IMG/VR virus record: IMGVR_UViG_3300032254_000001
Span: 96,001 to 160,000 of that record
From: a virus
Taxonomy: Duplodnaviria > Caudoviricetes
Reading direction: 5' to 3' (one strand)
Length of the DNA stretch: 64,000 nt
Shown here: positions 15,272 through 57,832 of the stretch, piece after piece
Numbering within the stretch: position 1 is the first letter of the stretch
Layout: every line of letters begins with the position of its first letter
Notes under the pieces: model-generated
Told to the model about the DNA's origin: nothing
What the model saw: only the letters and a program-made list of their open reading frames with translations
Databases searched by the model: none
Program-made: the position numbers and the translations under genes

Positions 15272-15300
15272 ATTATAGTGTAGTACTTAATAAATGTCAA
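15272..15300 (-). promoter_or_regulatory. Consensus sigma70 promoter of the replication operon
   Basis: TTGACA-17 bp-TATAAT. Confidence 0.85.
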
Positions 15301-15310
15301 TGCAATAGGC

Positions 15311-15336
15311 AAAAAAATAGGTCCCTAAGGACCTAT
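15311..15336 (-). terminator. Rho-independent terminator
   Basis: ATAGGTCC-TTAG-GGACCTAT followed by T7 on minus strand. Confidence 0.85.
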
Positions 15337-15359: not shown

Positions 15360-15737
15360 TTATAAGCCTAGTACTTTACTCGGCGCCGGACTTAATTCAA
15401 AGCCACGTTTTTCTGCTGCGGCAACTACTTGCTTCAGGTAGACTTGTAACTTAGCTTTTCCGTGCGGATCTAAAGTGCGTAACTTTTGGAGAAGCTTCTG
15501 CCACGTTGCGTTTAACTTTTGGTTTGCTTGCTGATGTTTTGCATCAGCTGCGGCTTTGTTGCCTACGCCAGTGTCGCGATTGATACCTTTAACGCCCGCA
15601 AATGCTGGGTCTGGCTCAAAGTCAAAACCACCGTCTGCTTCAAGTAGTGCAACGACTGACTTACATAGCTTAATAGATTCATTAAGCATTTTATTTTCGC
15701 GTAACGGTTGTTTGTCGAATAATTCAAATAATTTCAT
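15360..15737 (-). CDS. Putative internal head protein
   Basis: MKLFELF leader, LRE/LNE sites, TAAATA at 15743-15748. Confidence 0.6.
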   Translation of the reverse strand: MKLFELFDKQPLRENKMLNESIKLCKSVVALLEADGGFDFEPDPAFAGVKGINRDTGVGNKAAADAKHQQANQKLNATWQKLLQKLRTLDPHGKAKLQVYLKQVVAAAEKRGFELSPAPSKVLGL

Positions 15738-15764
15738 AATAATATTTATCTCTGTTTTAGCGTA

Positions 15765-16877
15765 TTAACTGAAACTTCGAGCCCAGTCGTTTGCGTTCTT
15801 AAAGCCCTGATCACGTGCTAACATATTAATTTCCTTCATGCTCATGTTATGCATAACCATTAAATGGTCAATTGGGTCTCCGCCGCCTGCTGCAATATCA
15901 CCAAACATGCTAATAGCATTATGGTCAATTCTTTTCTTAGGCTTTTTCATTTTCATTTCTAATTCCCAACCGTTCTTTTGGAAATCAATAAATTCTTTTG
16001 CTCTGTCGAACTTGCCATTTGGATATATTGCAAATCTAACGTTGCCGTTGCGACCTAATAAAGCTACTTCGTCACCTTTCACTAATGTAACATCGCTGTA
16101 TAAGTGACCGCCGGACTTTTCTAAACGTGATACTGTGTTGTTCTGTTGTTCTGTCGGGCCTGCTGGAGCTGCTTCGCTCATGTATTTTTCAAAATCCCTG
16201 TATCCACGACGCCTTAATTCACGGTTAATTATTTTGATTTGAAATTCACGTGGAGTACCTTCGCCTGGTGATTGTTGATCGTCTATACCTTTGCCCTGAA
16301 GCCTAAGTAATGTTTCGTCATCCATATCTTTAACGGCTGCCATCATGTCTTGTGGCTGACGGTAACCATCCCACCAAAATGCTTTATTCCATCTTTTGCC
16401 TAGGCTATCGGATTTTGCTTCTTCGACACTTTCATTCTTTTCATTGTGCTGTTTCCAAGCTGTAGCATAAAGCACTTCTTCCCACTTATCGCCGTACTGG
16501 TCTTTAAAGTCCGCTTTGCGATCTTTAATCCATCCTTCCATGCCCGGTGGTGCTTTCTCGTTAATCTCAGCTTCGCCTAAAATGTCAATTGGTTCTACTG
16601 CCCCGGCTCTATTTCGTTTACCCATATAACCTGTAAATTCCGTTTTATTTGCTAGTGGAAAGTACTGGTCGCTGTCGTCTGTTTCAACAGGTGTTTCATT
16701 TGATAACCAATGATAAGCACCTGCTGGAGTTTGCCCAACGTGTGTTGCCCATCGCGGTGCTTGGCTAGCTTTTGGTGCGCCGGGTGTTGTCTTGACTCCC
16801 ATCTTGCGGCCAATTGTATCGATTACGGACCCTTCGTGGATACGTCGTGGTGTTTCAAATAATTCAAATAGTCTCAT
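15765..16877 (-). CDS. Putative modular internal head protein
   Basis: MRLFELFE leader; IHE, INE, MSE junctions. Confidence 0.6.
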   Translation of the reverse strand: MRLFELFETPRRIHEGSVIDTIGRKMGVKTTPGAPKASQAPRWATHVGQTPAGAYHWLSNETPVETDDSDQYFPLANKTEFTGYMGKRNRAGAVEPIDILGEAEINEKAPPGMEGWIKDRKADFKDQYGDKWEEVLYATAWKQHNEKNESVEEAKSDSLGKRWNKAFWWDGYRQPQDMMAAVKDMDDETLLRLQGKGIDDQQSPGEGTPREFQIKIINRELRRRGYRDFEKYMSEAAPAGPTEQQNNTVSRLEKSGGHLYSDVTLVKGDEVALLGRNGNVRFAIYPNGKFDRAKEFIDFQKNGWELEMKMKKPKKRIDHNAISMFGDIAAGGGDPIDHLMVMHNMSMKEINMLARDQGFKNANDWARSFS

Positions 16878-17743
16878 TCGCCGTCTTCTATTGTTAATTG
16901 GTAGTCAAAGATATCACCTTTGTACTTGTCGCTTACGTGTGATTCCTTTGCAACAAGTTTAATCGTTTTGCCTTGGCTCATTAAACGTTTCATATCATCA
17001 GCCATACTATCAAAGTTTGATGTTGACATGCCTTCGTTAATTGGTTCTTCAGCTAAGTTAAACTTGCCGTTATCGCCTTTGCTTAACTCACGTGCTTTGC
17101 GTTCGTCGTGTAATTCTTTCTTAAATTGGGTTGCTTTGTCTTCTTCTGTCTCGTCCATTGAACGGAAAAGGTCTGCTAGTGATTGCTTCTTGTTCATTTC
17201 AGTACGCGGTGCTTCTGGTTGGGTAACTGTGTCTTCAAGTATTTCTGCGTGTGCTACTGTAGCCATTCTATCGCCACCTGCACCATCACCTAAATTAAAA
17301 CGCTTGCCAACTGCATAGTAATCAAGCATCTGCTCGTCGGATAGCCCAGCTGCCATGTTAGTTGACATTTCTTCGCCTGTGTCAAATGTAACTTTGATTG
17401 CACGTAAACCGCCTTCTGTAACTGCGCTTTCGCCTACGTTAATCTTTTCAAGTTCATCAACTACTTCTTTACCAGCTTCTGGTTCACCCTCTTCGCCGCC
17501 TACCAGGAAGTTACTTGCTGGGTGTTTAGTATCTGTATTCTTTGCCATTGTATGTGTACTTGGCATTTGGTTAACGCTCTTTTGCTGTGCGTCTAACCCT
17601 TCTAACAATGATCTCATTGCATTCTTTTCAGCGGCAGCGGTACTTTCTTTCTGCTCACCTGTGTTTGCATCCGTTACTATTCCAGTGCCGCCTTCAGCAT
17701 TAGAAAAGTTCTTTAGGATGTTTGTCATATCATTGTCAATCAT
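16874..17743 (-). CDS. Acidic putative head/core protein
   Basis: Glu-rich with VTE/INE junctions, in late cluster. Confidence 0.55.
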   Translation of the reverse strand: MIDNDMTNILKNFSNAEGGTGIVTDANTGEQKESTAAAEKNAMRSLLEGLDAQQKSVNQMPSTHTMAKNTDTKHPASNFLVGGEEGEPEAGKEVVDELEKINVGESAVTEGGLRAIKVTFDTGEEMSTNMAAGLSDEQMLDYYAVGKRFNLGDGAGGDRMATVAHAEILEDTVTQPEAPRTEMNKKQSLADLFRSMDETEEDKATQFKKELHDERKARELSKGDNGKFNLAEEPINEGMSTSNFDSMADDMKRLMSQGKTIKLVAKESHVSDKYKGDIFDYQLTIEDGE

Positions 17744-17745
17744 AA

Positions 17746-18210
17746 TTAGTCCTTGCTATTAGCGTATTTACCTGTTTTCTTGGCTTTTTTCTTTGTTTTT
17801 GGCGCACGTTGTACAGGTGCACCAAGTGGTGCTACTACTGTTGCCATACCGCCTGCACACGTTGTTTCGTTCAGGCTATTCTTTTCAAGTTCAATATAAG
17901 ATGCAGTAACATGACTTAATCGGTAATCGCCAAACTCTGCTCTACGTAGCTCATCAATTAGGTCTGCTGCTGTTTCACGCCACTCAACGTCCTGTCCTTC
18001 GTAATCCCAACGTTGTCCTGGCTTACGATTCTTGTTCCTAGGAACTGATACAATAACGTCCATATTTCTTTTAGCAGATGCTTTGTGTGGCTCGCCTAAT
18101 TCATTAGCAACATAGTTGTCCATGAAATGCTGTAGTTCTTCTTCGGTGCGGCTGTAGTCAGTGTCCTGTGGATAGTAATCATCCTCAGTTATAAATTCTG
18201 TTGCTCTCAT
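17746..18210 (-). CDS. Putative internal head protein
   Basis: MRATEFITE leader. Confidence 0.6.
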   Translation of the reverse strand: MRATEFITEDDYYPQDTDYSRTEEELQHFMDNYVANELGEPHKASAKRNMDVIVSVPRNKNRKPGQRWDYEGQDVEWRETAADLIDELRRAEFGDYRLSHVTASYIELEKNSLNETTCAGGMATVVAPLGAPVQRAPKTKKKAKKTGKYANSKD

Positions 18211-18497
18211 GGTAATATCTCAAATTTGTAGTTGTCTATCATTTTAGCATCACCTAATTCAATATGCGGGTTGCTAACTGTGAACTCACCAATGCTAGGT
18301 TCTAACCTTTCAAGGCAAAATTCATATACACCTGGTACCGCTTTTACCTGGAGCATTTCTTTAATATATGTGTTGTCGTTGTACTTAAATGTGCGTTCGG
18401 TGAACAATTCATCGTTTAAATAGATTCTGTACTGCGGCGGAAAGGCTTCCCACTTGCATCTAACTTCAAATCTAACTTTGACAAATTTTGGTTCCAT
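18207..18497 (-). CDS. Beta-rich hypothetical protein
   Basis: ORF with TAAATA at 18503-18508. Confidence 0.6.
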   Translation of the reverse strand: MEPKFVKVRFEVRCKWEAFPPQYRIYLNDELFTERTFKYNDNTYIKEMLQVKAVPGVYEFCLERLEPSIGEFTVSNPHIELGDAKMIDNYKFEILP

Positions 18498-18505
18498 AAC
18501 ACTAT

Positions 18506-18742
18506 TTAGCGTTCCATCTTAGCTAGTCTAGTATAATAGTCCGGCAACTCATTTAAATGATCTAGCGCAATTTCTCTTGCCGCTGCTCTGTTTGTTATGT
18601 GCTCTAATTCAACACCCGTACCCTTATCTAACTGCGCGTTGATTTCGTCGACAGTTACACCGTGCTTTGCAGCAATCTGCTCAACTGATGGTGTGTCAAC
18701 ACTTGGCATTATTTCTTCTGTTATAAATTCTGTTGATTTCAT
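18506..18742 (-). CDS. DUF5661-like protein with CTS-like leader
   Basis: MKSTEFITEE; GxxVELEH..AREIALDHLxExPDYYTRL. Confidence 0.75.
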   Translation of the reverse strand: MKSTEFITEEIMPSVDTPSVEQIAAKHGVTVDEINAQLDKGTGVELEHITNRAAAREIALDHLNELPDYYTRLAKMER

Positions 18743-18745
18743 ATG

Positions 18746-19345
18746 TTATCCGTATATCCAATCGTTAACTAGCTTGAATCGGATGTTAAATGCATTCATA
18801 AACAACTGCATTTCTTTAAGACATTCGTGCTGTCCTCCGCCACCAAGTAACGATCCACTAAGTGATTTTAAATCACCAATGCTGATGTCTGGAATGTAAA
18901 TCCCATCATCGTACATCCACTCGCCGCCATCATCGCCAACAAGTTCTTTGAATATTTCTTCGCCGTTTTCTTGTCGCTCGATAATATCTCTACTATCGGT
19001 CATGTCATTCATAACCATGTAACGTACTACTTTAATAATAGTGCTGTCATCTACACCTTGGTCCATCCATGAACGTAACCAAGCATATGACTTCTCTTTA
19101 AAATTTATGTTGTGTGCTAGATCTTCATCTAGGCCGTGTTCCATATAATGATAAGCTACTTCAGACGGTGTGTCTTCAATGCCAACATCTTCGCCGTTAA
19201 AAAATGCAGTAACGTTTGGACGTTTTGCATTTATGTAGGCAATGGCTTCTTCTATAGCATCATTGTATCCAAAGTCGTCGGATTGATATGCTGGTTGAAA
19301 GTCTATTAAAATAACACTATTGCCACGCGCTTCAAATAATTCCAT
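18746..19345 (-). CDS. Isochorismatase/cysteine-hydrolase-fold protein
   Basis: ILIDFQ (Asp), EKSY (Lys), GGGQHEC (Cys) triad. Confidence 0.65.
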   Translation of the reverse strand: MELFEARGNSVILIDFQPAYQSDDFGYNDAIEEAIAYINAKRPNVTAFFNGEDVGIEDTPSEVAYHYMEHGLDEDLAHNINFKEKSYAWLRSWMDQGVDDSTIIKVVRYMVMNDMTDSRDIIERQENGEEIFKELVGDDGGEWMYDDGIYIPDISIGDLKSLSGSLLGGGGQHECLKEMQLFMNAFNIRFKLVNDWIYG

Positions 19346-20928
19346 TAGTCTGTCGCCTTAACTATTAAAACTGGTACTTCTGATACACCAGCTTGTATTG
19401 CTGCCATTGAGCGATGCAACCCTTCTTGTGATATGCGTGGTCCTTTTGAATAGTCTAAAGTAAGAATTGGAAACTTCTCTCCACTCTGCATTTTCTCTGC
19501 ATAACTAGCAGCTAATTCTGGATCACGTTGGCTGACAATTTCGTCTGGTGTTTTACCAAAGCCTTTTGCTGCACGTTTTATATATTCTTGCGGCGACATT
19601 TTAATTAATTCAGTCGCTATCCCTTTTGCACGTTCAAAGTATTCTGGGTTCTGCATCATATTATCGTAGTACGGCATGTCTGTTGTATCCGCATGAAATG
19701 CGTCTATGCTTTCATTCAAACCCTTGGGTACACCGTTTGTTTGTAACATAGGCGGTATACCATCGTCAGTTGTTTTAAAGCCTAACTTTTCAGCTTCGAT
19801 ACGTGTTTGTGCTTCGCCTACGTCAGGAGTAACATTACTGCCTTTACGTATTAAGCCAACACCTTCTGAAGCGAATTGCTTGCCTTTTAATCTTGTATTT
19901 GTAACTTTCTGTATTAGCTGCCATGCTTCTTTATTCTTATTAGCTGCTATTAAACGGGTAAGTAAATCAACTTGTTTCTTTGGTGCTATTTCATAGAACT
20001 TCATAACTTCCATTACACCAATGTTGCCATTGTACGATGCTTCAAACACAGATAAGTTACCTGCTGCTTCATGTATGTAATCGTAATCAAAATCATCAAA
20101 CAAGCTGCTACGTGCTGCAAACAAACGCTTAATCATACCTTCAGTTGCATGTGTTGACTTGCCTGTTTCGAACTCTGCTTTTAATTCTTGTGCCAATGCC
20201 TCTGGCTTTTCCTTAGTGTGTTCTAAGCTTAAGTCGCGATCGTCATGTGCGCGTTTCTTTGCCCAAAGCTTTGCAAAATATCCATCTGTACGTAACATCT
20301 TAAATGCTAAGTTCTCTGGTCCGAATTCACCGTGCTTGTCTAGGCCTGCTTGTCTGTACTTCTTAACTAGATCCAAAACATCGTTTAAGTATTTACGGTT
20401 GTCTGATGCTAATGCACGGATAGCCAGGTTCTTTAAATTTTCGTATTTTAATAGCGTTGCTGTATCGTTAAGGTTTGCACGTTGCTTCGTTGGAATTCTA
20501 TTCCAATCGTCCTTCATAACACTATAACTACCTAGCGAATGATGTGCTTGTACTGCATCTTGTACGTACAATTCAACATCGTAGCCTTTGATTTTAATGT
20601 CGTGCATATCGTTGTATTGATACTTCTTAGAATCAAATAACTCTCTGTATATGTCGCTGTCTGGAAGTTGTGTGAAGTCCACTATTAAGTGTAAGTCGAT
20701 GTCTGAATGTGGTGTGTAGCTGTACGCTGCATTGGAACCACTTACTTCGATATCAACAAGTGCAATGTCCTGTACACCAAGGAACTCGCGGAAGTGATCG
20801 GCAATCTCCATTAGCTTATTACGGACCATCGGACGCATCTTATTGCCCATAAAGACTTGTGGGTTTAAATCAGTATTAAAGTCAATAGCTTTTGCTAATT
20901 GAAAGTTGTCTAATTCTGCTAAGTTCAT
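19345..20928 (-). CDS. Pol-beta-type nucleotidyltransferase fused to a C-terminal ParB/Srx-like domain
   Basis: GSNAAYSYTPHSDIDLHL; C-terminal FPILTL..QEGLHRSMAAIQAGVSEVPV. Confidence 0.75.
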   Translation of the reverse strand: MNLAELDNFQLAKAIDFNTDLNPQVFMGNKMRPMVRNKLMEIADHFREFLGVQDIALVDIEVSGSNAAYSYTPHSDIDLHLIVDFTQLPDSDIYRELFDSKKYQYNDMHDIKIKGYDVELYVQDAVQAHHSLGSYSVMKDDWNRIPTKQRANLNDTATLLKYENLKNLAIRALASDNRKYLNDVLDLVKKYRQAGLDKHGEFGPENLAFKMLRTDGYFAKLWAKKRAHDDRDLSLEHTKEKPEALAQELKAEFETGKSTHATEGMIKRLFAARSSLFDDFDYDYIHEAAGNLSVFEASYNGNIGVMEVMKFYEIAPKKQVDLLTRLIAANKNKEAWQLIQKVTNTRLKGKQFASEGVGLIRKGSNVTPDVGEAQTRIEAEKLGFKTTDDGIPPMLQTNGVPKGLNESIDAFHADTTDMPYYDNMMQNPEYFERAKGIATELIKMSPQEYIKRAAKGFGKTPDEIVSQRDPELAASYAEKMQSGEKFPILTLDYSKGPRISQEGLHRSMAAIQAGVSEVPVLIVKATD

Positions 20929-20946
20929 GACAGTATTTATGATGAA

Positions 20947-21534
20947 CTACGGACGCACTGGCTGAACGAGCTTGTGCGACCATACATGGCCGCCAATATC
21001 TTGCCAACGTTGTGTAAATTCCCATTCCTCTTCGCAGTATGTTCCGTTACGTACACCAGTATCAAAGTAAGTCCTCAAAAATGGGTCTTCGCCTATTTGT
21101 ACAATCTTCTCGTGATCCTGTAAATGTATCAGTGCCTCACGACTTACTAGCATAAAGCCATTGTTTATTCTACCAACCTCTTCAATATCGCCTTCGCTCG
21201 CCATAATATCGCTATGGTATCCGCCGCTGCCGATTATATGTTTCTTAGATGATAGTAGTGCTAGTATATGGAATGGTTCAAACAATACGTCTCCGTCAAT
21301 TAATAACATGTGGGTAGTGCCTGGTGAATTCATAAAGCCAGACGTTAGGATGTTACGTGCTGTTGCACCTTCATCTATTGCTGATGCTGTACTTGCTATG
21401 CCCATTTGCATTGCAAGTTCGTTCCATTTTTTAAAGCTTTGGAATGTGCCAACAGATACGCCAGCACGACATGCTATACAAACATGTACGCTTTGATCTT
21501 TAAGGTAGTCTAGTGGTGCTAAGTTTATGTTCAT
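20947..21534 (-). CDS. GT-A-like glycosyltransferase
   Basis: HMLLIDGDVLF (DxD), GFMLVSR, EEWEFTQRWQDIGG. Confidence 0.6.
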   Translation of the reverse strand: MNINLAPLDYLKDQSVHVCIACRAGVSVGTFQSFKKWNELAMQMGIASTASAIDEGATARNILTSGFMNSPGTTHMLLIDGDVLFEPFHILALLSSKKHIIGSGGYHSDIMASEGDIEEVGRINNGFMLVSREALIHLQDHEKIVQIGEDPFLRTYFDTGVRNGTYCEEEWEFTQRWQDIGGHVWSHKLVQPVRP

Positions 21535-21557
21535 GTTCGTGTTCGTATTTAATACGA

Positions 21558-22229
21558 TTATGAACGTAGATTAAAATTATTCAGGAATTCTGCAAATTCG
21601 CGGACTAGGTCTTCTGTTTGTACCATACCCATTGATTTATCAAACTGCTTACGGACTTTGCTTCCTACCTCTTCGCCATAAAGGTCGGTAAGGATTCTGT
21701 TACGTGTCTTACTGTCTGCTACTGCATACATATCACGTATCTCAGTTGCGCCAGTAATCTTTTTGCCAGCTACAGGGAAAGTAACTGTTGGAGTTGCATA
21801 TGCATACATATGCCCTGATGATACAGGTTGTGCATCTTTACGCAACCATTGTATAGCTGCTCGCTCACCATTCTTTTTAAGTGCATACCCTTCTTCGTCA
21901 GTGTTAGTACTAACTAAACGATCGCCGTCCTTTTGACTTAGTGCAAGAATAAGAACAGTGTCTGCGGGATTGAATGGAATAGCATCTTTAATGAACTTAT
22001 CAACGTATACATTCTTAACTTGAACAAACTTTCCAGTAGGTACGCCCATTGCTACTGCAATACGCTTCTTCTCTTCCCACGTAAATGGATCCTTTGGCCC
22101 TGGTGCTTTATCAGCAGATGCCATGTACACACTATTACCACCAAACTTGTTAACTAACCAATCAAACGATGCCTTGTGGCCTTTATGTGGTGGCTGAAAT
22201 CTCCCTCCAAAAACTACAATTTCTTTCAT
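21558..22229 (-). CDS. HxGH nucleotidyltransferase (cytidylyltransferase/NMNAT-like)
   Basis: GGRFQPPHKGH, DPFTWEEK, ITGATEIR. Confidence 0.8.
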   Translation of the reverse strand: MKEIVVFGGRFQPPHKGHKASFDWLVNKFGGNSVYMASADKAPGPKDPFTWEEKKRIAVAMGVPTGKFVQVKNVYVDKFIKDAIPFNPADTVLILALSQKDGDRLVSTNTDEEGYALKKNGERAAIQWLRKDAQPVSSGHMYAYATPTVTFPVAGKKITGATEIRDMYAVADSKTRNRILTDLYGEEVGSKVRKQFDKSMGMVQTEDLVREFAEFLNNFNLRS

Positions 22230-22606: not shown

Positions 22607-22681
22607 CTATTGAATTATAAACTTTAGTATATTTGTTATTATTAAACATACTGATATTTAGTTGGAATCGGCCGCCGTAAA

Positions 22682-23005
22682 TTACTTTTTGGGAAAGTTT
22701 AAAATATTTGAATTTTGTTTAGCTTCTGATAATACTTGCTGGAGTTCTACAGCATTTTGGAATTCAGAGACTTGGCTCCAAAATATACTGACTATAGCAT
22801 TGTACCTTGCTATTGGGTCTTTGAATTTGTTAAGTTGTTGTTCTAACTGCCATTGAAATTGCAAACAACGTTCTAATCTATCTGGACAATCAGCGCATAA
22901 GTCTGTGATGTGTTTCTCGATGGTTTCCTTACGATAGGTTTCGTAAGCTTCTGGATCTGCTTTGTACAGTTCCATTAATTCGTCAAACGATTTCTCGTCG
23001 CACAT
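22682..23005 (-). CDS. DUF3135-like protein
   Basis: SFDELMELYKADPEAYE..R; QFQWQLEQ..KDPIAR. Confidence 0.7.
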   Translation of the reverse strand: MCDEKSFDELMELYKADPEAYETYRKETIEKHITDLCADCPDRLERCLQFQWQLEQQLNKFKDPIARYNAIVSIFWSQVSEFQNAVELQQVLSEAKQNSNILNFPKK

Positions 23006-23145: not shown

Positions 23146-23511
23146 TTAGTATCCGATTGATACTTTGTTTATAGTTCCAGCTGTAAAGCTCGATACTGTG
23201 ACACGTAGCCATGTATAATTGCCTTCCAGGTTAACAAAGTCATTTTCAGTTAACGGGTTAATACCGTCACCTACAGTTTGGATTGGAAAATAGTTGCTGG
23301 TGTCGCTTGATTCGTCAAGCGTAGCTTCTATAGTTAGTACTCCAACAAATCCAGTTAAGTACCAAGATGTAGTTTGTACACTCTTGTCCTTGCTGTAGTA
23401 TGCTGCTGCCTTCTGTGGGATTCCACTAAAGGTTGCGGCACTGCCATCATAATTCTCAATAGCAGTGCCGAACGTAGTAGACGGTAATAAATTATACGAT
23501 GATGTTTTCAT
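23146..23511 (-). CDS. Beta-sandwich putative virion protein
   Basis: Start MKTSS lies just after TAAATA (23517-23522); FxGxxxIEATL..GNYTWLRV. Confidence 0.55.
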   Translation of the reverse strand: MKTSSYNLLPSTTFGTAIENYDGSAATFSGIPQKAAAYYSKDKSVQTTSWYLTGFVGVLTIEATLDESSDTSNYFPIQTVGDGINPLTENDFVNLEGNYTWLRVTVSSFTAGTINKVSIGY

Positions 23512-23522
23512 ACCTGTATTTA

Positions 23523-25850
23523 TCAATCTTTAGGCTTGAACTGATCAAGTACAATGTAACCGTCATCGCCTACTTTACCTGGCTCTGCAGGAACGATTGG
23601 ACTTGGCAGTGATGGCATCGGATGTGACTTGCCTTCCTGGTCAAGGAACACCACTTCATCGTTTACATAATCAGCTGTGATTGTGCAATTGCTTAACGCT
23701 TCAAACAAGATACGCTTACTAAGTGGTTTCTTAAATACTTCAGAAATCTCACGTTTAATAGGTCTTGCGCCAAGTGTTGCATCGTAGCCTGTATCCGCAA
23801 TATGGTTAATTGCTGCTTCGGTTACTTCGAGTGTAATGTTCTTAGACTTTAAGCTATCCTTAAGTTCGTTAACAAACTTAACAACAATCTTCTTAACGTT
23901 AATGTCTTCAAGCTTGTTGAACTTAGCAATACCATCAAGTCTGTTACGGAACTCAGGCTTGAAGAAGTCTTTAACTGCTTTGTCTTCTTCGCCGGTACGT
24001 TCTAATGGAGTACCAAAGCCGATGTTGTTGTTTTCGTTAGCTGATGCACCTAAGTTAGATGTTAATATAACAATGCAGTTTCGTAAGCTAACTGACTTAC
24101 CTGAACGACTAGTAATCTTACCTTCGTCAAGTACCTGTAGTAATACATTCATTACATCAGGGTGAGCCTTTTCAACTTCGTCTAACAATAGTACAGAGAA
24201 TGGGTGTTTGCTAACATCCGATATTAGCTTACCGCCACCGCCTGACTCTTCAAAGCCAACATAGCCTGGTGGTGCACCAATTAATGATGCTACTGTGTGC
24301 TTCTCCATGTACTCAGACATGTCATAACGTAACAGTTCCATATCTAAGTTTTCACTAATTAACTTAGCAAGTTCAGTTTTACCTGTACCTGTTGGGCCTA
24401 AGAATAAGAAGCTAGCAACCGGCTTGTTTTCTTCTGCAAGTCCACTGAAGTTAACATAGATTTTATCAAGTACTTCGTCAACTGCTGTTTCCTGGCCGTA
24501 CAGTTTGTCATCAATGTTATGTCTAAGTGACATAAGAGTCTTGCTCTTTTCATTGCTTAAACGTTCTGGCGGAACACCTGTTACTTTGCTTAACTGTAAG
24601 ATAACTTTTTCTTCAGTTACAATTGCATTCTCGTTATCGCTTGCACGTTCTTTAGCGCATGCCGCATCAAGTATGTCAATTGATTTGTCTGGATTGTGTC
24701 TGTCGTGGATGTAACGTATGCTTAGATCAACTGCTGTTTTAATAGCTTCTTTGTTGATTAGCACTTTGTGGAATTCTGATAAACGATCTGCAACCCCTGT
24801 TAAAATCTTAACAGTAGTTTCCTGATCCGGCTCATCAACTGTTAGTTTGTAGAACCTGCGCATTAACGCTTTATCTTTTTCAAAGGACTCGTAGTACTCG
24901 TCCCAAGTTGTGTTTGCAACAACCTTAATCTTACCACGTGTAATTACTGGCTTAAGCATGTTTGCAAAGTCTAACGAAGTTCCACTGCCGGCGCCTGCGC
25001 CTTTCATAGTGTGTGCTTCATCAATAAACAGGATGCCTTTACCTGAGGATTCAAGTGCCGATATAACTTTCTTGAACTTCTCTTCAAAGTCACCGCGGTA
25101 CTTACTACCAGCTAACATGTCGCTGATGTTTAGTTCCCATACTGTGTGGTCTTCTAAGAATTTAGGTACTAGGTTATTAATGATGTTTTGTGCAAGGCCT
25201 TCAACAATTGCTGTCTTACCAACACCGGGCTCACCTATCATTAATACGTTAGACTTGAACTTTTTAGCAAGTATTTCAATTGCATCTTTGATTTCTTCGT
25301 CACGTCCAATAAGTGGTTCTAAGTCACCAGCAAGTGCCTTAGCTGTAACGTTGGTGCAATGTTCTTCAAGTAGTTCTGCAGACTGTGCGTCTGTTAAGCC
25401 ACCTTTGTTATCGCTGTAATGATCATTCCAGTATTCAGCAAATGCTTCTTTATCATCAATGCCGTACTTTAAAATGAAGTAATGTGCATGACTATTTGTT
25501 TCACTTGAAATGCTTAGGAATAAATCGATGGTAGTAACAAAGCGTCTACCGCTGAATAAAACTTGTGTAACTGCGCGGTTGAACACACGCTCTAAGCTGT
25601 TTGTACGTCTTGGTACATCGCTCGATGCAGTTTTTGTGGTTGGTCCTGGTAACAATCCGTCAATATAATCTTCAATATCTTTGATCATATCATCTGCATT
25701 GACACCATAACCCTTGAGACATAAATAGAATGGTTCATAACTTACTAAGGCGACAAGCAAGTGTTCAAGGAGTACGTATTCGTGTCCTTTCTTTTTCGCT
25801 AGTGCAATCGCATAGTCGGTTATTTGTTCAATCTCTGGATTAATTTGCAT
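23523..25850 (-). CDS. clpA: ClpA-like Hsp100 AAA+ chaperone
   Basis: ClpN domain, GEPGVGKT, FIDEAH, GPTGTGKT, DMSEY, GAPPGYVG, LLDEVEKAH, GARP. Confidence 0.92.
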   Translation of the reverse strand: MQINPEIEQITDYAIALAKKKGHEYVLLEHLLVALVSYEPFYLCLKGYGVNADDMIKDIEDYIDGLLPGPTTKTASSDVPRRTNSLERVFNRAVTQVLFSGRRFVTTIDLFLSISSETNSHAHYFILKYGIDDKEAFAEYWNDHYSDNKGGLTDAQSAELLEEHCTNVTAKALAGDLEPLIGRDEEIKDAIEILAKKFKSNVLMIGEPGVGKTAIVEGLAQNIINNLVPKFLEDHTVWELNISDMLAGSKYRGDFEEKFKKVISALESSGKGILFIDEAHTMKGAGAGSGTSLDFANMLKPVITRGKIKVVANTTWDEYYESFEKDKALMRRFYKLTVDEPDQETTVKILTGVADRLSEFHKVLINKEAIKTAVDLSIRYIHDRHNPDKSIDILDAACAKERASDNENAIVTEEKVILQLSKVTGVPPERLSNEKSKTLMSLRHNIDDKLYGQETAVDEVLDKIYVNFSGLAEENKPVASFLFLGPTGTGKTELAKLISENLDMELLRYDMSEYMEKHTVASLIGAPPGYVGFEESGGGGKLISDVSKHPFSVLLLDEVEKAHPDVMNVLLQVLDEGKITSRSGKSVSLRNCIVILTSNLGASANENNNIGFGTPLERTGEEDKAVKDFFKPEFRNRLDGIAKFNKLEDINVKKIVVKFVNELKDSLKSKNITLEVTEAAINHIADTGYDATLGARPIKREISEVFKKPLSKRILFEALSNCTITADYVNDEVVFLDQEGKSHPMPSLPSPIVPAEPGKVGDDGYIVLDQFKPKD

Positions 25851-25856: not shown

Positions 25857-26240
25857 CTATCCCTTCTTTTGTCGTTGGGCACGGTCAATGCCATTATGTA
25901 GCCGATCAATAGCTTTTTTAATCTCGCCATCCTCGTCTATTAGTGTAATTTCTTTAGTGCTACCTAAGTAATTGGTATAACTTAAGTGTATTGTACTGGG
26001 TTCTGGGTCCGTTTGCAAGTCTTTTGGCTCAGTTATGGTTGGATTGAAGTAAAAATGTGGCTTTGCTTTGGTAACCAGTATCTTTGAGTCTAGTCCAACA
26101 TCTGGGCCAGTTACTAGTGTTCTGGTTGTTAGATTTAGGGCAATTAACATTTCGATACCTTGTTTTTGGTTAGTAGCTGGTACTTCGAATGTTACATCGC
26201 TTGCGGGTTTCTTTAGTGGATTATCTTTTATACGTAGCAT
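25857..26240 (-). CDS. Peptide deformylase-like protein lacking catalytic motifs
   Basis: Collinear with PDF (DNPLKKPASDV, FNPTI, YTNYLG, IDRLHNG) but no GxGxAAxQ, EGCLS or HExxH. Confidence 0.6.
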   Translation of the reverse strand: MLRIKDNPLKKPASDVTFEVPATNQKQGIEMLIALNLTTRTLVTGPDVGLDSKILVTKAKPHFYFNPTITEPKDLQTDPEPSTIHLSYTNYLGSTKEITLIDEDGEIKKAIDRLHNGIDRAQRQKKG

Positions 26241-26248
26241 TAAAATAT

Positions 26249-27004
26249 TTAGCCTTTATTGCTGCGAATCAAAGATAAAAGTGCCTCCGGAATGTCTTTA
26301 GGAATTTTGCCAATAAGGTTGACTAGCATGTCACCTCTTGAATTAGGGTCAATTCTTGATTGTATACCTTTGCCCTTAACGCGCATAAAGGTACCTGGTT
26401 GTGTTCTTGCTGGGACTCTAATTCGAATTATGCTACCGTCAATGGTTGCAACATCCAATTCTGTACCTGTAATTAAATCCCAGATACTAATGTCCTGCTT
26501 CCTTATTAAATTTCGTTCGTCTACGTCCCAATTTGGGTCAGGTTGTAGTTTGAAAGTAATAACAACATCGACACCTTTAGCTAGCTTTTTGTACTTAACT
26601 GATTCACCGTGTTTAACACCATATGGTATTGCTACCCGAACTGTTTCAGTAGTACCATGCACAGGAATCTGTAACACCTGGTTTCCACCAAGCATTGCAT
26701 CCTTAAAGGATATCGTTGCTGTTAGGCTTACTTGCATTTGATGGCGATATCTAGACTCACGTAGAAAGTCTTCTATATCATTTTTTGACTTAAAATTGAA
26801 ATCAAAGTCCGGTGCCTTCCACCTTTCGGGTTCAGGTTCACCGTCTTTAATCTTTTCGTACGCTGCTTGTATTTCTTTGAATTTATCATCCTTTCCATCA
26901 TTACGGTCTGGATGAAATTTCATTGCAAGTTTCTTATACGCTTTCTTGATGTCGTCTTCGGAGGCACCCCTCTTTACGCCAAGAGTAGTATATGGATCAC
27001 TCAC
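26249..27004 (-). CDS. DnaJ/CbpA-type J-domain co-chaperone
   Basis: [13 protein letters not shown], DnaJ C-domain, no zinc finger; GTG start. Confidence 0.9.
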
Positions 27005-27623
27005 GACAGGCTCCCCTAGCTTCCTTATCGAAGTCACCTTCGTCGATTTGGCTTATGTACGCTTTATTAGAATTGATACTAAAGATCTTTTCGTAGTGCT
27101 CTGATACTAAGTTAATGGGAATTCCCATTAACTTACCAATTGCCTCAACGTAATCGAGTTGGTATATCATTGCAGTTTCAAAGCTTAAAAATGTATGCGG
27201 TAACGATGTTAAGTACTCTAGCGCATTGTGAAAATGTTCTGAGGTAGGTTCACCTCGTAACCTGGTTTGCTGCAATTCAAGAATGTTTTTATCTCTGCTA
27301 ATAATGCCAATTTGCACATTAAAACCTTTTGACAAAAACTTATCAACAACGGCTTTGTAATCAGGAATTAGTACTGTTCCTTTATTGAGATATGGACACG
27401 AAATACTAATGACATGATGGTCATAGCCCCATTCCATGGTATCAATTAAATCTGGATTGCCCCAAATTTCGTTATATGGTTCTTTACTATGTCCCATATA
27501 GGCATCACCATTGATTCCATCCCATCCTTTAACGTCCGGGTGTAAATCAAATATTTTAGAAAACAGGTGATTGCCACTTCCTTGCGGCCCTGATAAGATT
27601 GTTATAGTTTTAGATTTTAACAT
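26997..27623 (-). CDS. Sulfotransferase-like P-loop protein
   Basis: [17 protein letters not shown]; LSFE. Confidence 0.5.
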
Positions 27624-35550: not shown

Positions 35551-35689
35551 AGTGTTATTTATGACTACTTTAAAGGATGTTGAAAATTGAATTCATGTAT
35601 ATTTACCGCCAAAACTAGTCATAATATGTACATATAATCAGTAACCTGACGATCTGGTTAAATAATTTAGTACATAGGAGACAATTACC

Positions 35690-38135: not shown

Positions 38136-38804
38136 TTATTGCTGTTCTTGGAATCCTGGCTGCCAAACTTGTGGCTCTCTTCCGCCTGATGTTTGAACTC
38201 TGATCGGACCTGGTGCTTCTCTGTGATAGTAGCGTGTCCATGTAGTATCGTAATCGTCCGGACCATAACGTTCGGTGTGATAGTCTTTAGTCATCCAACC
38301 TAGTGCTTCAACGTCACCCATTGTGTAAACTGGCTCTGCTGAGCTTGATGTGTTATGTACAACTGGTGCATAGCCTGCTTCGATTTCTGCCTTTAAACGT
38401 GCTTGACGTTTTGTAGTATTCTGCATATCGCTTTCAACGTTATCTTCGTCTAAGCCCATAGCATATTCTTTTGCTTTAGGACCTGCGTGTACAGCAAGGA
38501 ACAAAGTCCTAGGACCTTGCTTCTCTATCGTAAAGCCTGGACCTCTAATCTCAAAGCCTGCATTATTTGGTTCGTCGTCGTCATCGTCTATTCTAGTGCC
38601 CGGAAACTTTGCTGCTAATGCAGTTACCATGGCAGTTGAACTTACATTGTTAACTCCGCCGCCATGTCGCAACCACGTTTTAAGTGCGCCTGCGCTTTGT
38701 TCTCTCTCGTCTACTTTGCACCCAAGACTGACTAGGATGGATACAATTTCTTTATTCTTAGATCGAACGTTTACTGCTTCTGTGATAAATTCTGATGATT
38801 TCAT
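38136..38804 (-). CDS. Putative modular internal head protein
   Basis: MKSSEFITE leader, TAAATA at 38810-38815. Confidence 0.6.
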   Translation of the reverse strand: MKSSEFITEAVNVRSKNKEIVSILVSLGCKVDEREQSAGALKTWLRHGGGVNNVSSTAMVTALAAKFPGTRIDDDDDEPNNAGFEIRGPGFTIEKQGPRTLFLAVHAGPKAKEYAMGLDEDNVESDMQNTTKRQARLKAEIEAGYAPVVHNTSSSAEPVYTMGDVEALGWMTKDYHTERYGPDDYDTTWTRYYHREAPGPIRVQTSGGREPQVWQPGFQEQQ

Positions 38805-38808
38805 ATTA

Positions 38809-50266: not shown

Positions 50267-51811
50267 ATGCGTTTTACCGAATTTAACCAAATTGACGAGG
50301 CCATTCTTTTAGAATCTCGTGGACTAGCTAGTCGTAAAGTTGGTGATGTTTTTACTTCCAATGGTGGCGAAGACATGACCTTTCAGGGTATTGAGTTTTA
50401 CCCACAGACTGGTAAATTTGAAGACCCAGAAGAACTTGCTGCTGAAATTGATAACGCAGAAAACGAATTTGGTATAATTACATGGTTAAACAATCCTCCC
50501 AAGACAGGTGGCTTTGGTGTTGTTAGCTTCGAAACTAAAAAGGGCGACATTAAACACTACGGTCGTTTCTTTAAAGTAGTTAAGGCAATGCACGATCAAA
50601 TGTCTTGGAGCAATAAAGATATCCCAGGATACGGACTTGCTAGTAAAGCAGGCGTAAAAGAAACTGCTGGCATGCAACCATCCGATGTACTAACACAAAA
50701 CGATAACAACACTCCAGCAACTATTGTAAAACAAATTGGTGCTAAGTTCGGCAAGGACCATATCCTAACTAAGGTTGCCGCTGCTGTTGCACGTGGTAAG
50801 AAATTCCCAATTAAAATTCCTGCACAAGAAGGTTTAAGCTTTGAAGCTTACCGTGATTACTTCTCTGAGATGTTACATCCAATTGCACTTATGAAACATA
50901 CAACTAGCGGCAATGCATCTGAAGCAGAGCAGCAATTCCTACCTGGCAGTAGCTTTGCAGAATGCTCTATTAGCTTTAGTACTTCAAAGACAGAAGGCCT
51001 AAGTGATAGTATCCTAGTTAACCCAGAAGGCCAGAACATTAAGGTTAGCAGTAAAGGTAAGTCAGGCGGCGCTCAAGCAAGTATTAAAAACTTAACAGAT
51101 GCTATACACGAATTAAAGAATCCGAAGCTAATTAAAAAGCACAAAGAAATTATCGACCTTATTGATACTGTAACAAGTGCTGGCGCTAAGGAAGCTCCTA
51201 GCGAACTTGCAATACATTACAAAATGATTAATCCAAAGGAAGCAGGATTAATTACGCGCATGGCAACACTAGTAGACAGTGGCAAGCTTAATCACAAGAA
51301 GGTCCTTAAAGGTGGTTACCTAACTAAGAGATTACAAAAGATATATGAAAATCGTGTAGCTAAAGATGCTTCTAAAGTAAATCCACATGCACATATGGTT
51401 GCCGCTCTTGCGTTCTTAGTAAGTGATCATATCAACAATAAATCTACATTTAGTAAGTCAGCATCAGAAATACTTAACCACGCAGGTTTAGTTACTGTTG
51501 ACACTAAAGCAAAGGAAACTAGCAAGGAATGGATCATAGAAGATTTCGAATCTAAATTCCCAGGTGAATCAATCACCGGTGTATTATTATCAGCACAAAA
51601 GAACTATTCAAGCACAATGTTCCGTGGTAACTTTACATTTAAGATTCTTAAGAACAATGCAAATCCAAAAGTATTTGCTGATGTGAAACCTGACGATGCG
51701 CCAGATAAGAAGAAAGCACCTAAGAAGAAGGCTGCTAAAAAGAGTTTGTCTGCTGCGAGTGGTGGTACTAAGAAACCTGCTAAAGGTACAACACAAAGAT
51801 CGAAACGTTAG
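50267..51811 (+). CDS. Putative head-packaged protein, possible PD-(D/E)xK nuclease fold
   Basis: MRFTEF..LLE leader; LSDSIL..IKVSSKG; Lys-rich tail. Confidence 0.5.
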
Positions 51812-57788: not shown

Positions 57789-57832
57789 ATGCCCTACATT
57801 AACATGCACTAATTTAATGCATAAATACTACA

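What the first reader, a model, noticed from the sequence alone, without database searches (positions are those of the whole stretch)
15360..22229. Family of late proteins with T4 CTS-like leaders and L/I-x-E junctions: a large injected-cargo system
Seen: N-termini MKLFELF, MRLFELFE, MRATEFITE, MKSTEFITEE, MELFE, plus MKSSEFITE (38136) and MRFTEF (50267), usually near TAAATA. The longer proteins look like unrelated modules separated by IHE/INE/VTE/LNE. Established: T4 IPII/IPIII use MKTYQEFIAE as capsid-targeting sequence and gp21 cleaves after L/I-x-E. Inference: these are packaged polyproteins processed in the head and delivered with the DNA, i.e. a large pool of uncharacterised first-minute effectors.
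Basis: partly seen in the sequence, partly recalled or inferred. Interest (0 to 1): 0.75.

Follow-up and report, generated by a model that had tools for sequence, protein, structure and literature searches.

The report
Capsid-targeting-like leader tags on phage proteins
About ten otherwise unrelated proteins of this uncultured 344-kb T4-related phage start with the same nine-residue tag, which closely resembles the tag phage T4 uses to load proteins into its head and then cut them free, so they are probably packaged and injected with the DNA, though no experiment shows this.

Summary
The window lies in a complete 344,483-bp uncultured T4-related jumbo phage that has a gp21-type prohead protease, a scaffold, a portal and a gp23-type capsid protein.

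- **Leader family.** Seven proteins start M[KR][AS][STQ]EF[IV]xE, with no internal occurrence in about 102,600 residues. Two start M[KR]LFELF[DE], and a conserved 514-aa protein carries a variant.
- **Resemblance to T4.** T4 IPII/IPIII start MKTYQEFIAE and Alt starts MELITELFDE.
- **The tag is a separate unit.** The bodies are unrelated, conservation stops at the final Glu, codons vary synonymously and flanking DNA is unrelated.
- **Spread.** The leader occurs at ORF starts in at least 119 IMG/VR stretches on about 32 cargo families, at 1-8 copies per related jumbo genome. It is absent from the eight cultured phages searched.
- **Timing.** The cluster has three TAAATA-N5-ATG late-type promoters. 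It ends at a terminator, followed by a perfect sigma-70 promoter for DNA polymerase.
- **Modularity.** Relatives fuse these modules into polyproteins of up to 1,140 aa or more, holding a Cu/Zn SOD, DUF5661 and a cytidylyltransferase. Several junctions are clean (L/I)xE sites, but the junction statistics are weak.
- **Limits.** Only about five of the ten genes in the interval carry a leader. Packaging, cleavage and injection are unproven.
- **Earlier reports.** The scan has reported similar leader families on other DNA at least eight times.

Verdict: a new variant of a known kind.

The parts
15360..15737 (-). 125-aa protein with class B leader MKLFELFD; basic (pI 9.6). Last gene of the cluster.
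   Evidence: TAAATA-N5-ATG box at 15743-15748. The ortholog in L009 (264 aa, MKLFELYN) has an extra module inserted in the middle.
15765..16877 (-). 370-aa modular protein with class B leader MRLFELFE. Holds IHE15, INE107 and VEE153.
   Evidence: The L009 ortholog is 755 aa (MKLYEMFEE) with further modules inserted. L010 joins one of its modules to the 125-aa body in a single 277-aa protein. The single-sequence AF2 model is poor; only residues 110-148, just behind INE107, are confident.
16874..17743 (-). 289-aa acidic protein without a class A or B leader (MIDNDMTNIL). Translationally coupled inside the operon.
   Evidence: Aligned with L010 and L009 orthologs: the E170-D171 junction is invariant, with ILE|D, VDE|D and TNE|D before it.
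17746..18210 (-). 154-aa protein with class A leader MRATEFITE (codons at 18184-18210) and a basic C-terminal tail.
   Evidence: Its only homolog, P0122 (248 aa), starts MKINEILNE and aligns from DDYYP. P0122 adds a module after ANSLTE| exactly where this protein stops.
18207..18497 (-). 96-aa protein with no leader. Heads the 96/154/289/370 operon behind a CTAAATA-N5-ATG box.
   Evidence: Conserved at the same locus in at least 14 related contigs. Function unknown.
18506..18742 (-). 78-aa protein: class A leader MKSTEFITE (codons at 18716-18742) followed by a DUF5661 domain.
   Evidence: Pfam DUF5661, E 2.7e-15. The same domain lies inside the 1,140-aa polyprotein of L056. It also lies inside the head maturation protease of Vibrio phage VPs20.
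18746..19345 (-). 199-aa acidic protein starting MELFEA. Leader status doubtful.
   Evidence: The ortholog in L010 (MKIFEARR, 60% identity) aligns from residue 1, so the N-terminus may belong to the fold. No family match.
19345..20928 (-). 527-aa multi-module protein starting MNLAELDNF, possibly a degenerate class B leader. N-terminal Pol-beta-type nucleotidyltransferase-like domain, then modules that relatives share.
   Evidence: PHROG 36119 covers residues 14-235, and a GS...DxD signature is visible in the sequence. The Atlas lead to NTP_transf_2 scores only 0.78. Residues 294-396 match two modules of the L056 polyprotein. TAAATA-N5-ATG box at 20934-20939. Pfam finds nothing in either half.
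20947..21534 (-). 195-aa protein with no leader. Probably not part of the tagged set.
   Evidence: PHROG 1574, function unknown. Homologs in relatives are longer and have no leader.
21558..22229 (-). 223-aa HxGH nucleotidyltransferase (cytidylyltransferase/NMNAT-like). No leader in this phage.
   Evidence: Pfam CTP_transf_like, E 3.3e-5. Weak match to the NMN adenylyltransferase 2qjt. Homologs in relatives start MFIAEMFTE, MFIADMFTE, MFINELLE or MRIHE and carry extra modules, reaching 429-1,140 aa in three of the four.
38136..38804 (-). 222-aa protein: class A leader MKSSEFITE plus module A (10-120) plus module B (121-222).
   Evidence: CTAAATA-N5-ATG box. Relatives L011, L012 and L123 encode 110- to 111-aa proteins made of the leader plus module B only. 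The junction GLDE|DNVESDM here aligns with FITE|DVDSDM there.
50267..51811 (+). 514-aa conserved protein with variant leader [16 protein letters not shown]|SRGL and a basic disordered tail.
   Evidence: At least 134 homologs. Their N-terminal peptides vary in length but always end (L/I/V/M)xE before [SAG][RKV]GL, and E16 is invariant. AF2 with an alignment gives pLDDT 83.5, with residues 1-17 and 476-514 floppy. No PDB fold match.
15317..15336 (-). Intrinsic terminator that closes the leader-gene cluster.
   Evidence: 8-bp stem, 4-nt loop, T7 tail.
15272..15300 (-). Perfect sigma-70 promoter (TTGACA-17-TATAAT) for the 87-aa gene and DNA polymerase. It separates the early replication unit from the cluster.
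   Evidence: 12 of 12 matches.

Best explanation
The shared N-termini are capsid-targeting-like propeptides. The proposed steps are as follows.

1. The genes are transcribed late, from TAAATA boxes.
2. The nine-residue leader M[KR][AS][ST]EF[IV]xE, or the Alt-like variant M[KR]LFELF[DE], docks the protein onto the gp22/gp67/gp68-type scaffolding core while the prohead assembles.
3. The gp21-type prohead protease cuts after the final Glu of the (I/V/L)-x-E site and frees the body inside the head.
4. The body leaves with the DNA at infection.
5. Multi-module proteins may also be cut at internal (L/I/V)-x-E junctions, so one leader could load several modules.

Shown here: the leader family and its sharp boundary; selection at the protein level; the presence of the head machinery; late-type promoters; the modular make-up.

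Inferred: docking, cleavage, packaging, ejection, and any function in the host.
For: 1. **Enrichment.** Seven N-terminal matches and none internal in about 102,600 residues.
2. **Likeness to T4.** Sequences read from NC_000866 are IPII/IPIII MKTYQEFIAE, IPI MKTFKEF...ITE and Alt MELITELFDE. In T4 the first 10 residues suffice for packaging. Residues 4 and 7 matter for targeting and residues 8 and 10 for processing, and gp21 cuts after L/I-x-E (PMC9026906). The Phe, the Ile/Val and the final Glu are kept here.
3. **Unrelated bodies.** No BLAST hit below E 0.05 between bodies.
4. **Sharp boundary.** Across 32 cargo clusters from IMG/VR, conservation stops after E9.
5. **Protein-level selection.** Leader DNA is 73% identical against 29-33% in the flanks. 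Of 125 codon pairs encoding the same residue, 34 use different codons, and Ser appears as both TCA and AGT/AGC.
6. **Machinery.** Peptidase_S77 protease aligns to T4 gp21 (5JBL) at E 2e-14, with the GEIDHP and SSRG motifs present. There is also a gp23 capsid protein with LAE|S before its conserved mature N-terminus, a scaffold with 22 (L/I/V)xE sites, a portal, and gp67- and gp68-like proteins.
7. **Late-type promoters.** TAAATA-N5-ATG occurs 36 times in the genome, against about 5 at other spacings. The genes behind it include large terminase, the gp67-like protein and two virion structural PHROGs. A terminator and a perfect sigma-70 promoter separate the cluster from DNA polymerase.
8. **The leader swaps while the body stays.** The 154-aa ortholog carries MKINEILNE, also nine residues. 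The 514-aa family keeps a floppy peptide of variable length that always ends (L/I/V/M)xE.
9. **One cargo domain sits in a head protein elsewhere.** DUF5661 lies inside the head maturation protease of Vibrio phage VPs20.
10. **Clean junctions.** Examples are GLDE|D (222 aa), ANSLTE|G (P0122), SQINE|RATD (L056), and INE|, IDE| and LSE| in Synechococcus phage S-SRM01 before modules that follow the leader directly elsewhere.
11. **Charge.** Five of ten bodies are basic (pI 8.1-9.8), against a genome median of 5.65.
Against: - No virion proteome, N-terminal sequence or expression data exist for this phage or any carrier of the leader. No cultured phage I searched has the leader.
- T4's Tyr4, which matters for targeting, has no counterpart. 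The leader is one residue shorter.
- MKLFELFD ends in Asp. In T4, Asp at that position blocks processing (PMC9026906).
- Two leader genes (genome 190628 and 218698) have no TAAATA within 60 nt.
- Junction statistics are weak. Glu at P1 is seen in 16 of 56 cases, but Glu is about as frequent at P3, P4' and P7'. (L/I/V/M/F)xE ends exactly at the junction in only 6 of 56 cases.
- (L/I)NE enrichment in the leader proteins rests on 5-6 sites.
Confidence: 0.65

Rival explanations
1. The leader is an address or recognition tag for something other than the head. It could be a degron or adaptor signal read by the phage's own ClpA/B-like unfoldase (23523-25850) and its neighbours. It could also direct the proteins to another assembly or compartment.
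For: The window encodes a ClpA/B-type AAA+ protein and a DnaJ-like protein close to the cluster. A first-stage note (e1-5342517) points to a catalytically dead peptide-deformylase-like gene beside them as a possible reader of N-terminal peptides; I did not test that. The sharp nine-residue boundary fits any short recognition tag.
Against: Nothing links the tag to Clp. The tag ends in the exact site type cut by gp21-type proteases, and it resembles two different T4 head-targeting N-termini. One cargo domain lies inside a head protease in another phage. The genes carry late-type promoters, like the head genes.
Confidence: 0.08
2. The shared start is a nucleic-acid-level feature. It could be a translation-initiation or mRNA-stability element for messages with little or no leader, or a recombination cassette that shuffles gene bodies. 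It would then have no role as a peptide.
For: Many genes here begin 5 nt after a promoter box and probably lack a ribosome-binding site, so the first codons could matter for initiation. Module shuffling is common at this locus.
Against: Synonymous variation is abundant. Ser is coded by TCA and by AGT/AGC, and Arg/Lys by AGA, CGA and AAA. Most TAAATA-N5-ATG genes, such as terminase, lack the leader. Only three of the seven class A leader genes have that promoter layout. Flanking DNA is unrelated, which argues against recent cassette copying.
Confidence: 0.07
3. The leaders do target the head, but the proteins are structural or scaffolding helpers, or DNA-condensing internal proteins. They would stay whole and would not act in the host. 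There would then be no polyprotein processing and no effector role.
For: Half of the bodies are basic, and some have Lys-rich tails, as DNA-binding internal proteins do. DUF5661 lies in a protease-scaffold protein. Evidence for internal cleavage is weak. No body matches a known effector family.
Against: Relatives fuse the same modules to enzymes: Cu/Zn superoxide dismutase, GNAT acetyltransferases, a deaminase and a nucleotidyltransferase. DUF5661 also travels with ART-PolyVal and Zeta_toxin domains. These are typical of injected 'polyvalent' proteins (PMC5512222).
Confidence: 0.15

Closest known systems
[quoted passage not shown]
   Same: Both are short tags that start at Met1 on otherwise unrelated proteins and end in (I/L/V)-x-Glu. 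The EF-I-x-E core is the same (T4 MKTYQEFIAE; here MRATEFITE). A second class resembles Alt (MELITELFDE; here MRLFELFE). The genome has a gp21-family protease, a gp22-type scaffold and a gp23 capsid protein. The genes carry late-type promoters.
   Different: The tag is nine residues, not ten, and has no counterpart of Tyr4. About ten carriers per genome compare with four in T4. The bodies are unrelated to IPI-III or Alt. Several carriers are multi-module proteins, and relatives have polyproteins of up to 1,140 aa or more. The leader was absent from T4 and the seven other cultured phages searched, and nothing has been tested at the bench.
Polyvalent proteins of phages and conjugative elements (Iyer, Burroughs, Anand, de Souza and Aravind 2017, PMC5512222)
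   Same: One polypeptide strings together unrelated small domains and enzymes. Here and in relatives these include a Pol-beta-type NTase, GNAT, a deaminase and a nucleotidyltransferase. DUF5661 co-occurs with ART-PolyVal and Zeta_toxin. Architectures are highly mosaic, and the proteins are predicted to be packaged and delivered with the DNA.
   Different: Pfam found none of the usual anchor or processing domains (MuF, portal fusion, zincin-like MPTase). Loading would instead depend on an N-terminal CTS-like leader, and release on the prohead protease at (L/I)xE junctions. In this window most of the genes are short single- or two-module proteins rather than giants.
Inner-body and ejection proteins of phiKZ, 201phi2-1 and SPN3US, processed by a diverged gp21 homolog (reviewed in PMC9026906; PMC5694885, PMC7411985)
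   Same: These are giant phages with many head-internal proteins. The proteins are cut after Glu at a three-residue motif, some at several sites, and are then ejected into the host.
   Different: Those phages cut at (S/A/G)-x-E, and no short N-terminal tag shared across cargo proteins has been described for them. This phage belongs to a different lineage, with T4-type core genes.

Membership tests
T4-type CTS-bearing head-internal proteins | Short tag at the extreme N-terminus, starting at Met1 and shared by proteins whose bodies are unrelated | tested here: met
   Seven class A and two class B N-termini; no internal matches. Bodies are unrelated by BLAST. 32 cargo clusters in IMG/VR.
T4-type CTS-bearing head-internal proteins | Tag ends in a gp21-type cleavage site, L/I-x-Glu | tested here: met
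   Class A ends I/V-x-E at residues 7-9. The 370-aa protein has LFE at residues 6-8. The 514-aa family ends (L/I/V/M)xE with an invariant Glu. Exception: the 125-aa protein has LFD at 6-8, with LFE at 3-5.
T4-type CTS-bearing head-internal proteins | Targeting residues of the T4 CTS (positions 4 and 7, Tyr and Phe; PMC9026906) | tested here: inconclusive
   Phe is invariant (F6 here). There is no aromatic counterpart of Tyr4, and the tag is one residue shorter.
T4-type CTS-bearing head-internal proteins | Genome encodes a gp21-family prohead protease and a scaffolding core | tested here: met
   Peptidase_S77, 86.7 bits. Aligns to T4 gp21 5JBL at E 2e-14 with the His and Ser motifs present. Scaffold, gp67- and gp68-like proteins, portal and gp23 are present.
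T4-type CTS-bearing head-internal proteins | Late expression together with head genes | tested here: inconclusive
   TAAATA boxes lie in front of, or upstream in the operon of, most leader genes. The same box precedes terminase, the capsid protein and the gp67-like gene. No RNA data exist, and two leader genes have no box within 60 nt.
T4-type CTS-bearing head-internal proteins | Protein present in the mature head with the tag removed | not testable with these tools
   The phage is uncultured. No cultured phage searched carries the leader. No proteome data are available.
T4-type CTS-bearing head-internal proteins | Sequence homology of the body to IPI, IPII, IPIII or Alt | tested here: not met
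   No Pfam or PHROG hit to internal-protein or Alt families. Homology of the body is not required for the mechanism, since T4-even internal proteins are themselves diverse.
Polyvalent proteins (Iyer et al. 2017) | Two or more unrelated effector-type domains in one polypeptide | tested here: met
   Relatives: L056 has a cytidylyltransferase, DUF5661 and a Cu/Zn SOD; L086 has two GNAT domains; L172 has a deaminase and a GNAT. In the window the 527-aa, 370-aa and 222-aa proteins are modular by comparison with relatives, but their modules are unnamed.
Polyvalent proteins (Iyer et al. 2017) | Typical anchor or processing domains (MuF, portal fusion, zincin-like MPTase) | tested here: not met
   Pfam reported none in the window proteins or in eight polyproteins of relatives.
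Polyvalent proteins (Iyer et al. 2017) | Gene context of late or virion genes | tested here: inconclusive
   Late-type promoters are present, but the cluster lies next to DNA polymerase, not in the head module about 150 kb away.

The most novel reading that the evidence does not exclude
In a large clade of uncultured T4-related jumbo phages, one nine-residue leader plus the prohead protease may serve as a general loading and release system for mosaic 'polyvalent' cargo. Unrelated modules and enzymes would be strung together behind one leader and joined by (L/I)xE sites. In relatives these include a Cu/Zn superoxide dismutase, an NMNAT-like nucleotidyltransferase, GNATs and a deaminase. The protease would cut them apart in the head, and they would be injected with the DNA. 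That would join two concepts so far treated separately, the T4 CTS and polyvalent proteins. It would also mark hundreds of orphan proteins as injected factors from their first nine residues alone.
Probability: 0.35. Interest if true: 0.75.

Novelty: new variant of a known kind. Interest (0 to 1): 0.55.

Why it matters
If the leader works as in T4, nine residues would pick out the packaged and injected proteins of a large, uncultured group of giant phages. In this genome that is about ten proteins. Across IMG/VR it is dozens of cargo families, nearly all of unknown function. Proteins that enter the cell with the DNA are the natural place to look for counter-defence and take-over functions. A short portable loading tag is also useful for engineering, as the T4 CTS already is. 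The link between the leader, (L/I)xE junctions and mosaic multi-enzyme proteins suggests how polyvalent phage proteins might be loaded and released without a peptidase of their own. All of this is inference until a virion proteome or a cleavage assay exists. The scan has also flagged comparable leader families on other DNA several times, so this is one more instance rather than a first.

Tried and rejected
- **Megablast of the interval against cultured phages.** No match.
- **blastn of 30 nt of leader DNA against cultured phages.** Only noise-level hits.
- **Leader codon pattern in cultured phages.** No hits in Sinorhizobium phage Phosso, Agrobacterium phage Atu_ph07, Vibrio phage 2.275.O, Escherichia phage A4, T4, Pelagibacter phage HTVC008M, Synechococcus phage S-SRM01 or Caulobacter phage Cr30. 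No published virion proteome can therefore be used.
- **Literature search for the leader strings and for DUF5661.** Nothing relevant.
- **Complex prediction of the prohead protease with the 78-aa leader protein.** No verdict (score 0.00, controls not run). This counts neither for nor against binding.
- **Single-sequence AF2 of the 370-aa protein.** pLDDT 41, too poor to place sites in linkers.
- **Foldseek of the 514-aa model against the PDB.** No match. Against BFVD, only uncharacterised phage proteins. tblastn of the 514-aa protein against cultured phages gave no match.
- **Sequence search of the 527-aa and 199-aa proteins against PDB chains.** Nothing useful.
- **Pfam on both halves of the 527-aa protein.** Nothing, so the ParB/Srx-like C-terminus suggested by eye and by a first-stage note stays unconfirmed.
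- **Statistical test that module starts follow Glu.** Significant against background (16 of 56; p 2e-7). I discount it, because neighbouring positions are equally acidic and the cases are not independent.
- **Small protein in L127, considered and dropped.** It has the leader followed by ASGGATAAGNVAT, which looks like the mature capsid N-terminus. I considered it as evidence that E9 aligns with the capsid cleavage Glu. The similarity covers only about 12 residues.

Full report
**Setting.** The window is bases 96,001-160,000 of a 344,483-bp IMG/VR virus record with direct terminal repeats, rated 100% complete. Its family-B DNA polymerase is at most 47% identical to that of any cultured phage. 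The best matches are Sinorhizobium phage Phosso, Agrobacterium phage Atu_ph07, Vibrio phage 2.275.O and the Rak2-like coliphages. At least 600 IMG/VR stretches encode the N-terminal 300 residues of the polymerase at about 61-67% identity (best 80), so the phage belongs to a large uncultured clade. Outside the window the genome has a T4-type head module:
- a portal;
- a 79-aa gp67-like protein and an acidic 255-aa gp68-like protein;
- a Peptidase_S77 prohead protease;
- a 366-aa scaffold with 22 (L/I/V)xE sites;
- a gp23-type capsid protein with NHLAE|SASSG before its conserved mature N-terminus.

The protease aligns to T4 gp21 (PDB 5JBL) at E 2e-14. It keeps the GE(I/L)xHP and SRG motifs, which I recall as holding the catalytic His and Ser (that assignment is from memory).

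**The observation.** I made a crude genome-wide gene call of 537 ORFs.
- **Class A.** Seven proteins begin M[KR][AS][STQ]EF[IV]xE. They are the 154-, 78- and 222-aa proteins in the window and four more at genome 69852, 73754, 190628 and 218698. The motif occurs at no internal position in about 102,600 residues.
- **Class B.** Two proteins begin M[KR]LFELF[DE] (125 and 370 aa).
- **Variant.** The 514-aa protein begins [16 protein letters not shown].
- **Wider pattern.** A looser pattern adds only one likely false positive.

That gives about ten confident carriers, some 2,000 residues in all. MELFEA (199 aa) is doubtful, because its 60%-identical ortholog starts MKIFEARR and aligns from residue 1. 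MNLAELDNF (527 aa) could be a worn class B leader, since relatives have MNLYELFES and MKLAELFEA, but I do not count it. Five of the ten genes in 15360-22229 have no class A or class B leader.

**Why the tag is a separate unit.**
- The bodies behind the leaders are mutually unrelated; no BLAST hit falls below E 0.05.
- The 27 nt of leader DNA are 73% identical between copies, while the 30 nt on either side are 29-33% identical.
- Of 125 codon pairs that encode the same residue, 34 use different codons, and Ser is coded by both TCA and AGT/AGC. Selection therefore acts on the peptide, and the copies are not recent DNA duplications.
Almost every match is the first ATG after a stop codon. The 118 proteins fall into 32 cargo clusters, position 8 (left free by the pattern) is mostly Thr, and conservation vanishes after Glu9.
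- Ten other large IMG/VR genomes that had a leader match in that scan carry 1-8 copies each, with none for the reversed control pattern. Four polymerase relatives carry 0 or 1 copy of this dialect, and the class B-type leaders are also found on polymerase-relative contigs.
- The only homolog of the 154-aa protein starts MKINEILNE, also nine residues. Its body then aligns from the shared DDYYP.
- In the 514-aa family (at least 134 members), the N-terminal peptide varies in length and sequence but always ends (L/I/V/M)xE before [SAG][RKV]GL, and the Glu is invariant. Only the closest relatives have the MRF[RS]EF form that matches the other leaders of this genome.
- In the AF2 model built from 38 sequences (pLDDT 83.5), residues 1-17 are not packed against the fold.

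**Likeness to T4.** From the T4 record, IPII and IPIII start MKTYQEFIAE, IPI starts MKTFKEF...ITE, and Alt starts MELITELFDE. The review PMC9026906 states four points:
- the first ten residues of IPIII suffice for packaging;
- residues 4 and 7 matter for targeting, and residues 8 and 10 for processing;
- Asp at position 10 blocks cutting but not targeting;
- gp21 cuts after L/I-x-E.

Class A keeps the E-F-I-x-E core, with one residue fewer and no Tyr4. Class B looks like the Alt N-terminus. The same review notes that T-even phages carry varied basic proteins with CTS-like starts, so the principle is known. What differs here is the dialect, the number of carriers and the type of cargo.

**Transcription layout.** All ten genes run on the minus strand from 22229 down to 15360. 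TAAATA lies exactly 5 nt before the ATG of the 527-, 96- and 125-aa genes, and also before the 222-aa gene. The window has 11 such sites against 1.4 expected. The genome has 36, against about 5 at any other spacing. Genes behind such boxes include large terminase, the gp67-like protein and two PHROG 'virion structural proteins'. The capsid and gp68-like genes have the box further upstream with a Shine-Dalgarno sequence. This fits a T4-type late promoter. The other leader genes are coupled inside these operons. The cluster ends at a strong terminator (15336-15317). A perfect TTGACA-17-TATAAT promoter follows, for a weakly DsbA-like 87-aa gene and DNA polymerase. The cluster is therefore a transcription unit of its own. 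Timing is predicted, not measured.

**Modules and junctions.** Comparison with relatives shows that the longer proteins are mosaics.
- **222-aa protein.** It is the leader plus module A plus module B. Three relatives encode the leader plus module B only, and GLDE|DNVESDM here lines up with FITE|DVDSDM there.
- **370-aa protein.** Its L009 ortholog has 755 residues, with modules inserted between the shared ones. L010 joins one of its modules to the body of the 125-aa protein.
- **L056.** One 1,140-aa protein starts MRIHE|. It strings together the cytidylyltransferase-like enzyme (a separate, leaderless gene here), DUF5661 (the 78-aa protein here), a Cu/Zn superoxide dismutase (Pfam E 2e-45) and two modules of the 527-aa protein. 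Three of its junctions read INE|.
- **Other relatives.** They carry GNAT acetyltransferases and a deaminase in such chains. Their cytidylyltransferase homologs start MFIAEMFTE, MFIADMFTE or MFINELLE.
- **P0122.** An extra module begins after ANSLTE| exactly where the 154-aa protein of this phage stops.
- **Synechococcus phage S-SRM01 (cultured).** A protein of at least 599 aa chains the same small modules. INE|, IDE| and LSE| come directly before modules that in IMG/VR contigs follow the leader Glu.

These single cases are clean, but the statistics are not. Over 56 junctions, Glu is at P1 in 16, yet it is about as common at P3, P4' and P7'. A hydrophobic-x-Glu triplet ends exactly at the junction in only 6. 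(L/I)NE is three times enriched in the leader proteins and seven times in the head-core proteins, on 5-7 sites each. I therefore hold internal processing to be plausible, not established.

**Hints on cargo.**
- No body in the window has a named function, apart from DUF5661.
- That domain lies inside the head maturation protease (DUF2213, PHROG 530) of Vibrio phage VPs20, directly upstream of its major head protein. This is independent circumstantial support for a location inside the head.
- In long metagenomic proteins DUF5661 travels with ART-PolyVal, Zeta_toxin and Amidoligase_2 domains. The Atlas neighbours of the 527-aa protein are viral NTP_transf_2 proteins fused to varied partners, though these are leads only, at score 0.78.
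- This is the domain vocabulary of 'polyvalent proteins', which Iyer et al. predicted to be packaged and injected (PMC5512222).
- Five of the ten bodies are basic, and two have Lys-rich tails.

**Verdict.** The best reading is a CTS-like loading tag that the gp21-type protease removes (confidence 0.65). I give processing of multi-module cargo at internal sites about 0.35-0.45, and delivery into the host a similar figure. The rivals are a tag for another reader such as the phage Clp system, a nucleic-acid-level signal, and packaged but unprocessed structural or DNA-binding proteins. They are less well supported, for the reasons given under each. The mechanism is known from T4. The scan has already reported comparable leader families on other DNA, so I rate this a new variant of a known kind, of moderate interest. 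The points specific to this case are:
- the two leader classes, which mirror T4 IPIII and Alt;
- the leader 'dialect' swap on orthologous bodies;
- the DUF5661-in-protease link;
- the tie to polyvalent-type enzyme chains.

Noticed in passing
window 15735-15748, 18495-18508, 20926-20939, 22647-22660, 23509-23522, 26238-26251, 28407-28420, 35548-35561, 38802-38815, 48396-48409 (all -), 57822-57835 (+): TAAATA sits exactly 5 nt before an ATG 11 times in the window (1.4 expected) and 36 times in the genome, against about 5 at other spacings. These late messages probably start at or next to the start codon, with no ribosome-binding site. The scan has reported this layout in related phages.
   Followed up: partly
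window 15272-15336 (-): A strong intrinsic terminator is followed at once by a 12-of-12 sigma-70 consensus promoter. The promoter stands in front of an 87-aa gene (weakly T4 DsbA-like, below Pfam's cut-off) and DNA polymerase. This is a sharp boundary between a late and an early unit on one strand.
   Followed up: partly
window 23523-25850 (-) and 26249-27037 (-): The phage encodes a full-length ClpA/B-type double AAA+ protein with a Clp_N domain, and a DnaJ-like protein with J and C-terminal domains. A DUF3135 protein lies nearby at 22682-23005.
   Followed up: partly
L233:3404-4672 (Vibrio phage vB_VpaM_VPs20, OP056089.1): The head maturation protease (DUF2213, residues 31-191) carries a DUF5661 domain at residues 206-263. 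A coiled-coil-like tail follows. The gene lies just upstream of the major head protein.
   Followed up: yes
L235:1381-3177 (Synechococcus phage S-SRM01, MW015081.1): Right after the small terminase gene, a protein of at least 599 aa strings together many small Cys- and Lys-rich modules (WSEKYKKSI..., DUF5661, LRAWFGK..., KCWDGYKK..., DWQSVNRKDKT..., DUF6321). Several of them begin just after INE, IDE or LSE. No virion proteome is reported in its genome paper (PMC8557907).
   Followed up: partly
window 50267-51811 (+): The 514-aa protein belongs to a family of at least 134 members of constant length. Its confident predicted fold has no match among solved structures. The only fold matches are uncharacterised phage proteins, including ones from S-PM2 and Atu_ph07.
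   Followed up: partly
L127:1201-1446 (-): A small leader-bearing protein starts MKASEFIKE and continues NASGGATAAGNVAT. That resembles the mature N-terminus of this phage's capsid protein (SASSGATAAGNVAT). It may belong with the 'mini-proteins carrying capsid fragments' noted elsewhere in this genome.
   Followed up: no
window 18207-18497 (-): A 96-aa protein without a leader heads the 96/154/289/370 operon. It is conserved at the same locus upstream of DNA polymerase in at least 14 related contigs. It has no family match.
   Followed up: no
L022:2082-5516, L033:3106-5802, L042:6034-8550, L058:690-2912 (all +): In many relatives the locus upstream of DNA polymerase holds one giant gene of 740-1,144 aa starting MNLFDLFE, MNLYDLFK or MIIFDLFE. 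In this phage the same locus is split into several shorter genes.
   Followed up: partly
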